A DNA stretch of 64,000 bases, from assembly GCF_009914755.1 (NCBI RefSeq), contig NC_060936.1. The stretch is one strand, 5' to 3'. The position numbers and the translations under genes were made by a program. The notes below the pieces were generated by a model, which worked only from the letters and a program-made list of their open reading frames with translations, searched no databases and had not been told where the DNA came from. Of this stretch, positions 28,061-31,397 are shown in pieces. Every line of letters begins with the position of its first letter. Position 1 is the stretch's first letter. Source of the DNA: the human T2T-CHM13v2.0 reference genome, Homo sapiens.

Positions 28061-30967
28061 TTACTTTTTTTCCTATTTTGCATAAGCCTATATAGAGATC
28101 TTTTATACTCATCTGCTTCTTTGTGTTATTTTTTGACACATGACTACGAATAGACTTACTAATTAAATGGTAGAAATGTCTTTATTTCTCATACTATATG
28201 TTAATATAAAGTTTTTTTAGAAGCAAAAGCAATACAAGCAACTGCATATCATTTACCTACCTGTAATCTTTAGCATTATGATTTTCCTCTTGTACCTTTT
28301 GCTGATTTACTAAGTACATGAATCAGTACAATACTCTCTCAGAGACCTCAAAAGTCTTCTTACTGTAGATGAAGTTTTATGTTTCTGATGAACAGCTGGG
28401 TTTCCTCCATGTGACTTGATGTGACTCTCCTCCATGTGACTCCCCTAGCTGGTGGGTCTGCTATCCCCTAAGACAGTCATTCCCAAGCTTTGCAATTAGA
28501 ATTACTTGGGAGGTTTTAAGTTTTTTGATATCAAGATTACACCCCATATGAATTAAATCAGAATGTCTGGGGCATGGTAGTAAGGCATTCAGAGAATGAT
28601 TGGGAAAAGAGAGTGTGAAAAAGGCACAGTCTCCCTAAATGCCTTGTCTCAGAAGGGACACATATTCTGTTGGTTAGAGCTAAGTACACAGTCATGCATA
28701 TCTGCAAATGGGGCTGGAAAATATAATCTAGCTGTATGCTCAAAAGACAAGGGAACAGCTACAGGCCTTTAGAAAGTATTTAAGAAAGTATTAAAAGACC
28801 TTATGTCTTTAAGAAAGTATTAAAAGACCTTATGTGTTGCTATAAATTTTGTCCCGTTTTTTAATGACTGTTAAATGTGACTTTTCAATGTTTTTCAAAT
28901 ATTTGAAATTATTTTAAATATTTTTGTTTTGTCTGGGCTTAGCATCTAGAAGATCAGAAGTGAACGTAGAATTTTATATTAGCTTATACAAAGTTGATGC
29001 TCAAAAATGTTGGGTGATGATCTTCTGAGATGTGAAGCCATGTATTTAATATCGAGGATGAATTTTGAAGTGGGGACCATCAATTTTGATAGACAACCAG
29101 ATCTCATGGCATTTACTTCTGTGTAAGCAGTGCATGGGTGCCACTAGGTTTTCAAAAATTTATTTGAAATAAGCTATCAAAATAGAAGTTTTGACTGAGA
29201 CTAACAGATACCATATATCAAACTGAGGCAGAACACCCTGCAGGACTTGCAAAAATAATGTGGCTAAAACCAATTAGATAATTCTTAAAATGTCCTTGCC
29301 CACAAGGGCAAAGAAGGAGTCAAGGATTAGCATGCAGAAGATGATTTTTGAAGGGGACTTTTGAAGAAGCGTCTTTAAATAGAACTCTCCCAAAAAGGAA
29401 GAGTCAGGGAAGTTTCCTCCTAACCCCATGTTGTTAGAGAAGGGACTTAAGGAGATCAGTTTGTGGGCTTAATACATGTCTCCCGCAGTTTGAAAGACAA
29501 AGTGGACAATATGGCATCATGCCTGATAAATTTAAAGGGGGAGAGGCAAGATCAGGAGGTGAAGTTTGGGAAGTGCTATAACTTCACTCCCATCCTTTGT
29601 GCTTGTTCCACTGTGTGTGTGACTGCTCTGAAGTCTGCCACCCACCCAGAAGCGAGGAGAGGGCTGCCTGGTAAGTGTCTGGTATCTCTGAGATCTACTG
29701 TCTTAAGGTCTCAAGAAAGACTTTTGTTTTCACATTCCATTACATGTTTTTTCAGTCTGCTTCATTTGCTGAAGCCTCTGAAAACTCCGAAAGCAACAGT
29801 TCAGCCTTTTGGGTATTTTTACAAAAGGTTAAAATAAATTAAAGTGGAAGCCCTTGGCAAACTGTAAAACACCATAAAATTATAAGACATTATTATTTTG
29901 TGCTTATTTATCATACATACTTGTTGCACTGAAAAAATCCCTTCTCAAAACATAATATAGGCATATGTGACCATATTTTAACCAGACTCCATTTGTTTGG
30001 AGCTTTCTTATATTTAGTCTCTAGTCAAGATGTCATGGGCTTAAACTTGGCAAGGAAAGTAAAAAGCATTAAAAAAAAAACATTAAGTTCACTTAAAACA
30101 TTTTCCACAATTTTCTTTCTCTTTCCATCTCTCCCTCAATTTTTTGTTTCCCTGAAAAAAACACCAGGGAAAATATTTCAAGTCATTATTTTAAAAGACA
30201 AAGAGGAAGTTAAGTGGAGTAAGATCTCTCTTACTCCATTTAAGAAAACAGCAAATAGTACAATGGACATAACCCATGTCTGAAAATTGACATATTAATT
30301 ATAAAGGTGAGGATCTGATACCTGTCCTCATTAGGAAACAAAAGCAATAACAACAAAACCTAGTCAAAGGATGGGAAAATATACAAAACTTTTTTTCCAA
30401 CTGTGTTAGTCTCTTTTTATTCTTTTGCAACTCCCTTCCAGAGTTAAGTATTGCTGTTTGTAGGTGACGAAATGCATAAGGACCCACTTCAAATACTGGT
30501 ACTACTTTCAGCATGGTCTTTCCCTTTGCTTTAACTCAGAATTAAGACTTTTGATTTATATTCCAGACCCAGAAGTAGTTTTCACTGTAGAAGTTATCTG
30601 AAAACAGTCTATGTTTTGTACTAGTGGTCTATAACCAAACTCTTAAGATTCTCTCAGAACATTGCAGGATGATTTACTTTAAATATGTATTAAACTATGA
30701 ATGCTTCTTAGTTTAATACAAATTTAATGCATTTAAATTCATTTAAATGCATTTTATTTTTGGACTTGCAAAAATAATGTGGCTAAAACCATTTAGATAA
30801 TTCTTAAAATCAAAAGTTTTAATTCTGAGTTGAAGTAAAGGGAGAGACCATGCTCAAAGTAGTACCAGCATTTGAAGTGGGCCCTTATGCATTGCTTTCT
30901 TTCTTTTTTTTTTTTTTTTTGTATTTGTTGTAGAGTGCAGAATCAATACCCCAAAAGACAGAGAGTT

Positions 30968-31240
30968 GGCAGGGAACAGTGGCTCATTCCTGTAATCCCA
31001 GCACTCTGGGAGGCTGAAGCTGGTGGATGACTTGAGGTCAGAAGTTCAAGACCAGCCTGGCCAACATAGTGAAACCACATCTCTACTAAAAATACAAAAA
31101 TTAGCAGGGCGTGGTGGTGGGTGCCTATAATCCCAGCTACTCAGGAGACTGAGGCAAGAGAATTGCCTGAACCCAGGAGACAGAGGTTGCAGCGACCTGA
31201 GATCGTGCCACTGCACTCCAGCCTGGGCGACAGAGCCATC
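30968..31240 (+). mobile_element. AluS lacking poly-A tail and TSD, fused to a local duplication
   Basis: Dimeric Alu body ends at gcctgggcgacagagccatc and runs directly into a copy of 29589-29766. Confidence 0.9.
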
Positions 31241-31397
31241 CTTTGTGCTTGTTCCACTCTGTGTGTGACTGCTCCGAAGTCTCCCACCCACCCAGAAGTG
31301 GGGAGAGGACTGCCTGGTAGGTGCCTGGTATCACTGAGCTCTACTGAAAGACTTTTGTTTTCACATTCCATTACATGTTTTTTCAGTCTTCTTCATT

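What the first reader, a model, noticed from the sequence alone, without database searches (positions are those of the whole stretch)
30679..31397. Patchwork of locally templated pieces: a fixed serial template-switch scar
Seen, in order: 23-bp hairpin (30679-30701 / 30705-30727, 2 mismatches); perfect 13-bp hairpin (30726-30738 / 30741-30753); direct copy of 29243-29291 at 30762-30810 (1 mismatch); inverted copy of 30471-30557 at 30807-30893 (7 mismatches in 87, joined via aaat microhomology); poly-T plus ~47 unexplained bases; a tailless Alu; direct copy of 29589-29766 at 31236-31397 joined via ccatc and lacking 15 bp. Established: such chains are hallmarks of FoSTeS/MMBIR or polymerase-theta templated insertion. 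Inference: a single old germline repair event, judging from up to ~8-10% divergence between copies.
Basis: partly seen in the sequence, partly recalled or inferred. Interest (0 to 1): 0.7.

Follow-up and report, generated by a model that had tools for sequence, protein, structure and literature searches.

The report
Old DNA-repair scar on pseudogene fragment
A 700-base stretch of human chromosome 12 is a patchwork of five short copies of neighbouring DNA laid over an old, unlisted TPT1 pseudogene fragment, likely the leftover of a germline repair accident some 14-33 million years ago, of a known kind and with no sign of function.

Summary
The pieces are real, at or within a base of the stated places. 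Other TPT1 copies stand in for the ancestor. The inversion shares 7 informative changes with the local copy, so it was copied locally, long after retrotransposition. The hairpins are two inverted pieces (29 and 19 nt) replacing 21 forward bases. Five pairs differ at 20 of 328 sites, evenly (p=0.61), about 21 My (14-33). The Alu looks about twice as old (p=0.06; CpG decay agrees), so it was probably cut or copied, not newly inserted. No distant donor of the 47-nt flank was found. The 'ccatc' microhomology is not supported (1 bp). Best reading: serial template switching (MMBIR/FoSTeS-like), probably one episode; tract lengths argue against plain polymerase-theta joining. 'Single event' and 'fixed' are untested: no primate or population data. 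A known kind of mutation, well resolved, no function evident.

The parts
29243..29291 (+). Donor of the 49-bp direct copy; unique DNA
   Evidence: no other genomic match
29590..29766 (+). Donor of the 162-bp direct copy; unique DNA
30390..30697 (-). Old TPT1 3'UTR retrocopy, main body with poly(A) remnant at about 30390-30397; not in the supplied gene table
   Evidence: 69-79% matches to 9 other loci; alignment with the intron-bearing parent on C13; parent exon hits Pfam TCTP PF00838
30471..30557 (-). Part of the retrocopy that served as donor of the inverted copy
30699..30727 (+). Inverted piece 1 (29 nt of TPT1 sequence; its first 10 nt no longer exist in forward orientation); makes the first hairpin
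30726..30744 (+). Inverted piece 2 (19 nt of TPT1 sequence); makes the second hairpin
30742..30765 (-). Last 24 nt of the retrocopy in native orientation; its end overlaps the 49-bp copy at 3 of 4 bases
30762..30810 (+). Direct copy of 29243-29291 (1 mismatch)
30807..30893 (+). Inverted copy of 30471-30557 (7 mismatches; 4-bp overlap with the preceding piece)
30894..30967 (.). T-rich tract (17 T at 30904-30920) plus 47 nt with no donor found; 30916-30935 resembles a reversed Alu linker (18/20)
30968..31236 (+). Alu, complete at the 5' end, lacking the last 13 nt and the A tail; no target-site duplication found; AluS-type (label recalled, not tested against a library)
31236..31397 (+). Direct copy of 29590-29766 (11 mismatches, 15 bp missing)

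Best explanation
The stretch holds five copies of nearby DNA joined over the end of an old TPT1 retrocopy, likely made by a replicating DNA end that switched templates several times in one germline repair episode about 14-33 million years ago. Shown: the copies, their donors, their orientation, their short junction overlaps, and that they postdate the retrocopy. Inferred order, read left to right: synthesis leaves the retrocopy, copies 29 and then 19 nt from the opposite strand a few bases away, rejoins for about 20 nt, jumps 1.5 kb back for 49 nt, copies 87 nt of the retrocopy in reverse, passes through pre-existing DNA (T tract, 47 nt, an older Alu), returns to the same upstream template 298 nt further on for about 170 nt, and rejoins the right flank, losing the Alu tail and whatever lay beyond the retrocopy. 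The result would be a neutral scar; the enzymes are not shown.
For: Donors of all five copies lie within 1.65 kb, in both orientations. 7 informative derived changes shared by 30471-30557 and 30807-30893, 3 of them seen in none of 9 other TPT1 copies. Even divergence, 20/328, p=0.61; left cluster 9/166 against right copy 11/162, Fisher p=0.65. 5 of 6 resolvable junctions have overlaps of 2-4 bp, two of them with one mismatch (read). The two direct copies are colinear, with offsets 1519 and 1646; a rough simulation gives 0.016 for that by chance (chosen after seeing the data). Complex multi-template germline insertions with microhomology are described in PMC8421209 (section 10 part 1 read).
Against: No outgroup allele: the age interval (14-33 My) is wide enough to hide several events. 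Exact overlaps of 2 bp or more occur at only 3 of 6 junctions, which chance gives with p=0.07-0.19. Two junctions (30893/30894, 31397/31398) and 74 nt (30894-30967) have no identified template. The first hairpin could also come from fold-back plus a later deletion at the palindrome centre. Dates rest on one borrowed rate (1.5e-9 per site per year, PMC5402677, passages).
Confidence: 0.6

Rival explanations
1. Two or more separate template-switch or repair events piled up at one fragile AT-rich spot: for example the hairpins and left cluster in one, the Alu truncation with the 162-bp copy in another.
For: The two junction clusters are separated by about 340 nt that may be untouched native DNA. 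The region 30670-30830 is 80% A+T. The dating cannot separate events 10 My apart.
Against: Divergences are homogeneous; the two direct copies come from one colinear 524-bp donor stretch; such duplicates are rare in the background set.
Confidence: 0.22
2. A 524-bp duplication of 29243-29766 came first; its middle 298 bp were later replaced by the inverted piece, T tract and Alu in an endonuclease-independent (non-classical) Alu insertion or a retroposed Alu-containing RNA whose poly(A) is the T tract.
For: Colinear direct copies. The Alu lacks its 3' end, tail and target-site duplication, as described for non-classical insertions (PMC5402677, passages). L1 activity can cause local rearrangements and fold-backs (PMC11702581, passages).
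Against: The Alu looks older than the copies: 13/228 non-CpG on one branch against 18 changes over two branches of 324 sites, ratio 2.05, p=0.062; 17 of 43 CpG-site bases changed, p=0.0004 if 21 My old, 0.03 if 33 My. No source locus with the 47-nt flank: only the self match, and 0 of 36 Alu loci with a matching flank beyond about 14 nt. No remnant of the missing 298 bp (p=0.41).
Confidence: 0.12
3. The patchwork formed when the TPT1 mRNA was retrotransposed (twin priming and templated filler at the 5' junction).
For: The cluster sits exactly at the retrocopy's 5' end and includes an inverted piece of it; no target-site duplication was found.
Against: The two copies share 7 informative changes absent or rare in the parent and 8 other retrocopies; the retrocopy is 17% from the panel majority while the copies differ by 6%.
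Confidence: 0.03
4. Plain polymerase-theta end joining with repeated aborted synthesis made all pieces.
For: Short overlaps, AT-rich short inversions; direct and inverted templated insertions are typical (PMC7165422, passages).
Against: That paper reports first-round tracts rarely over 10 bp; here tracts are 49, 87 and 162 bp, from 0.25 to 1.65 kb away. A hand-over from polymerase theta to polymerase delta (PMC13065848, abstract and section 7) falls under the best explanation.
Confidence: 0.03

Closest known systems
Complex germline MMB-TI events (MMBIR-like templated insertions; PMC8421209, section 10 part 1 read)
   Same: Several nearby templates, both orientations, microhomology or one-mismatch microhomeology at junctions; 33 and 26 complex germline events were counted in two people.
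   Different: This one is old (about 6% between copies), lies in the reference, has five copies and eight junctions, and its ancestor is read from paralogous retrocopies rather than a second allele.
Short-range template switches in great apes (four-point model; PMC7954356, section 8 part 1 and passages read)
   Same: The two hairpins are short inverted pieces (29 and 19 nt) that include bases lying ahead of the switch point, the pattern that paper assigns to inter-strand switching.
   Different: That survey models one out-and-back switch (median 12 nt, maximum 128) among human, chimpanzee and gorilla; this chain has several switches, kb-range jumps and is probably older than those splits.
Local n-jumps and templated-insertion bridges in cancer genomes (PMC7025897, passages read)
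   Same: Copy-and-paste clusters with tight breakpoints and mixed inverted and non-inverted junctions.
   Different: Somatic there; germline, sub-kilobase and ancient here.
TPT1 (TCTP) processed pseudogenes
   Same: 3'UTR homology to the intron-bearing parent, ending in an A run where the parent has none.
   Different: Only about 340 nt of the 3'UTR survive, no coding part in the window, no target-site duplication found, 5' end rearranged; not in the supplied gene table.

Membership tests
MMBIR/FoSTeS-like complex templated insertion | Inserted segments are copies of nearby templates that remain in place | tested here: met
MMBIR/FoSTeS-like complex templated insertion | Mixed direct and inverted orientation, several switches | tested here: met
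   2 direct and 3 inverted pieces
MMBIR/FoSTeS-like complex templated insertion | Microhomology at junctions above chance | tested here: inconclusive
   5 of 6 with 2-4 bp if one mismatch is allowed; 3 of 6 exact, p=0.07-0.19
MMBIR/FoSTeS-like complex templated insertion | All junctions arose in one event | tested here: inconclusive
   homogeneous divergence p=0.61, wide interval; no outgroup allele
MMBIR/FoSTeS-like complex templated insertion | Made by break-induced replication enzymes | not testable with these tools
   fossil sequence only
Polymerase-theta templated insertion (TINS) | Short tracts (rarely over 10 bp per round) from DNA flanking the break | tested here: not met
   tracts 19-162 bp, donors up to 1.65 kb away against PMC7165422 passages
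TPT1 processed pseudogene | Homology to the mRNA of an intron-bearing parent | tested here: met
TPT1 processed pseudogene | Poly(A) remnant at the transcript 3' end | tested here: met
   A run after the polyadenylation signal as in other retrocopies, absent in the parent
TPT1 processed pseudogene | Target-site duplication | tested here: inconclusive
   only chance-level matches in 30760-40000; the right copy may have been deleted by the event
TPT1 processed pseudogene | Intron loss | not testable with these tools
   the surviving piece lies wholly in the parent's last exon
Non-classical Alu insertion | 3' truncation, no A tail, no target-site duplication | tested here: met
Non-classical Alu insertion | Alu entered at the repair event (same age, empty site in outgroups) | tested here: inconclusive
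   age tests lean against; empty site not testable
Rearrangement during TPT1 retrotransposition (twin priming) | Inverted and direct parts share no post-insertion changes | tested here: not met
   7 informative shared changes in 87 columns

The most novel reading that the evidence does not exclude
One germline repair episode with eight junctions in 700 bp, in which the copying end left a template 1.5 kb upstream, took in an inverted retrocopy piece and a pre-existing Alu, and came back to that same template almost in register: a miniature chromoanasynthesis event fixed in the ape or catarrhine ancestor, and a first example of a fossil class that can be decoded without outgroups by using retrocopy families as ancestors.
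Probability: 0.3. Interest if true: 0.45.

Novelty: new member of a known kind. Interest (0 to 1): 0.27.

Why it matters
It does not point to a new function or system. Its value is as a clean fossil of serial template switching in the primate germline, with a clear test in primate orthologs, and as a method hint: an old retrocopy gives the pre-event sequence, which here shows what was inverted, what was lost (4 nt outright at the hairpins) and when. It also adds an unlisted TPT1 retrocopy fragment upstream of ABCC9.

Tried and rejected
Distant donor for the T tract, 47 nt and Alu: whole-genome searches with 105, 321 and 62 nt and a 34-nt pattern with up to 3 mismatches found no second locus with the flank (one search scored 40 of 5270 candidates; the pattern would catch about 86% of donors at 6% divergence without indels). 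Local donor for 30921-30967: chance-level scores. Local donor for 31398 onward: chance level within 5 kb; one 20-nt match near 39900 scored p=0.3 for the 63-nt query and 0 of 30 shuffles for the 33-nt query, left unexplained. Target-site duplications for retrocopy and Alu: none convincing. TPT1 coding remnants in the window: none. Paralog or empty allele of the whole region in the genome: none. Structured RNA: 0 Rfam matches at gathering score in the window. Tandem-repeat origin: only a weak 10-nt unit at 30722-30754, the second hairpin. 'ccatc' overlap: would need a further loss of about 7 Alu bases; not shown. A random genomic background sample was not obtained; loci already held were used. 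Literature: searches on ABCC9/CMAS/12p12.1/rearrangement, on TPT1 pseudogenes and on fixed templated insertions in primate evolution (listings only) showed no paper on this locus; supplements of PMC7954356 (event coordinates) were not opened and could list part of it.

Full report
Observation. The sequence, the repeat finder and a self-BLAST confirm every piece: two hairpins (30679-30727 and 30726-30753), a 49-bp direct copy of 29243-29291 at 30762-30810 (1 mismatch, E=1.5e-17), an 87-bp inverted copy of 30471-30557 at 30807-30893 (7 mismatches, E=5e-30), a T tract and 47 nt, an Alu at 30968-31236 without its last 13 nt and tail, and a copy of 29590-29766 at 31236-31397 (11 mismatches in 162, 15 bp missing, E=4e-56). 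The two stems fold far better than shuffles (z=-7.2, 0 of 200). With thresholds of 35 bp, 85% identity and 50 bp to 3 kb spacing, the window holds only this cluster's three pairs and one Alu-Alu pair, and 58 other loci (187,617 bp, not a random sample) hold one dispersed non-repeat pair and one tandem array.

A genome search with 29000-30895 found 30390-30709 at 9 other loci at 69-79% identity. One of them (C13:44.557 Mb, L049) has an intron ahead of the matching sequence and an upstream exon that hits Pfam TCTP, PF00838; another carries a TCTP reading frame. So 30390-30765 on the minus strand is a retrocopy of the TPT1 3'UTR, with an A run where the parent has none. It is old: 53 of 310 sites differ from the majority of nine copies, against 8.5-12.9% for the others (the majority is not the true source, so this is an upper bound). 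No coding part survives in the window and no target-site duplication was found.

The family serves as an ancestor. Projected on the TPT1 copies, the hairpins are not invented sequence: 30699-30727 is a 29-nt inverted piece and 30726-30744 a 19-nt inverted piece, which together replace 21 forward bases; only 4 bases are lost in both orientations. Each inverted piece includes bases that are absent from the forward arm, so a simple fold-back cannot give it. It needs a switch to the other strand (the logic of PMC7954356, passages) or a fold-back followed by a central deletion. For the 87-bp inversion, 71 of 87 columns equal the majority, 9 are shared departures, 5 are private to the donor, 1 to the copy and 1 differs in both. 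Two of the 9 are uninformative (state common in the panel); of the other 7, three occur in none of the nine other copies. The inversion was therefore copied from this local retrocopy after it had aged. That rejects formation during TPT1 retrotransposition.

Junctions (read). Native to inverted piece 1: 3 of 4 bases shared. Piece 1 to piece 2: 2 bp. Piece 2 to native: 3 bp. Retrocopy end to 49-bp copy: 3 of 4. 49-bp copy to inversion: 4 bp. Alu to 162-bp copy: 1 bp against the majority of held Alus, so 'ccatc' is not supported. Two junctions have an unknown partner. Five of six at 2 bp or more would be p=0.001-0.006 by chance, but that counts two imperfect ones; three exact ones give p=0.07-0.19. 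The evidence leans to microhomology but does not prove it.

Age. The five pairs differ at 1/19, 0/11, 1/49, 7/87 and 11/162, in all 20/328 (6.1%), homogeneous (p=0.61). At 1.5e-9 per site per year (PMC5402677, passages) that is 21 My, interval 14-33. The Alu differs from the majority of its 29 closest held copies at 13/228 non-CpG sites, about 40 My (23-68); the per-branch ratio is 2.05, p=0.062. CpG decay (17 of 43 bases against the majority of 111 held Alus) is unlikely at 21 My (p=0.0004) and fits 40 My (p=0.12). A source Alu that differed from the majority would inflate both. The Alu most likely predates the event. No second locus carries its 47-nt flank, so it is most simply native DNA whose tail was cut off, or a copy from DNA since deleted.

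One event or several. The two direct copies come from one 524-bp donor stretch in the same order and orientation, with offsets 1519 and 1646; 298 donor bases are replaced by 425 others with no remnant. A rough simulation puts that at 0.016 by chance, a figure chosen after the fact. It ties the left and right clusters together, either as one synthesis tract with excursions or as a duplication whose middle was later replaced. All long donors lie to the left. Both strands of the left-hand DNA served as template, which fits a fork or invaded duplex better than two resected single-stranded ends (inference).

Mechanism and comparison. The anatomy matches complex MMBIR-like templated insertions reported as germline variants (PMC8421209, section 10 part 1) and local copy-and-paste clusters in cancer (PMC7025897, passages). 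Tracts of 49-162 bp from up to 1.65 kb away exceed what is reported for polymerase theta alone (PMC7165422, passages); short fold-back inversions of about 5-34 bp are known at yeast breaks (PMC11724301, abstract), and a theta-initiated, delta-extended pathway with 21-245 bp insertions is described in human cells (PMC13065848, abstract and section 7). It works like an MMBIR/FoSTeS scar; membership cannot be closed, because single origin and enzymes are untested.

Verdict. Real, beyond chance, and better explained than at first reading, but a new instance of a known mutational class in intergenic DNA with no sign of function (no overlap with the supplied gene table or its one listed enhancer; no Rfam match). 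No paper on this locus appeared in the listings. Primate orthologs were not available and would decide the matter. Interest 0.27.

Noticed in passing
L049 (G000:C13:44557100-44557400): The TPT1 parent lacks about 17 nt of 3'UTR that all six aligned retrocopies and the window copy retain, so the parent lost it late; a dating marker for TPT1 retrocopies.
   Followed up: no
window 30471-30557 versus 30807-30893: Private changes are lopsided: 5 in the donor, 1 in the copy, 1 unresolved; the window retrocopy is also the most diverged of ten TPT1 copies. Small numbers, not tested.
   Followed up: no
window 30916-30935: Reverse match to the Alu middle linker (18/20; shuffle p=0.035) next to a 17-T run: either a templated inverted piece of this Alu or a remnant of another, oppositely oriented Alu-like insert.
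   Followed up: partly
window 29694-29710: The 15 bp missing from the 162-bp copy contain an imperfect 8-nt tandem in the donor, so gain in the donor cannot be told from loss in the copy.
   Followed up: no
window 10380-10438, 23383-23460, 26951-26998, 28779-28835: Four near-perfect two-copy tandem duplications of 25-39 bp.
   Followed up: no
window 30210-30243: A further short hairpin, 15-nt arms, 93%, 4-nt loop, 150 bp left of the retrocopy.
   Followed up: no
window 31697-31770: 82% match to C15:43848788-43848864, probably an old repeat remnant.
   Followed up: no
L036 2051-2101 and 3209-3259: A 51-bp, 98% local direct duplicate 1.1 kb apart, running off the end of the locus.
   Followed up: no
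L050, L051, L052, L053: Four TPT1 retrocopies are interrupted at the same A-rich spot of the 3'UTR, matching window 30556, by a repeat expansion or insertions; the inverted copy's donor also ends there (30557).
   Followed up: no
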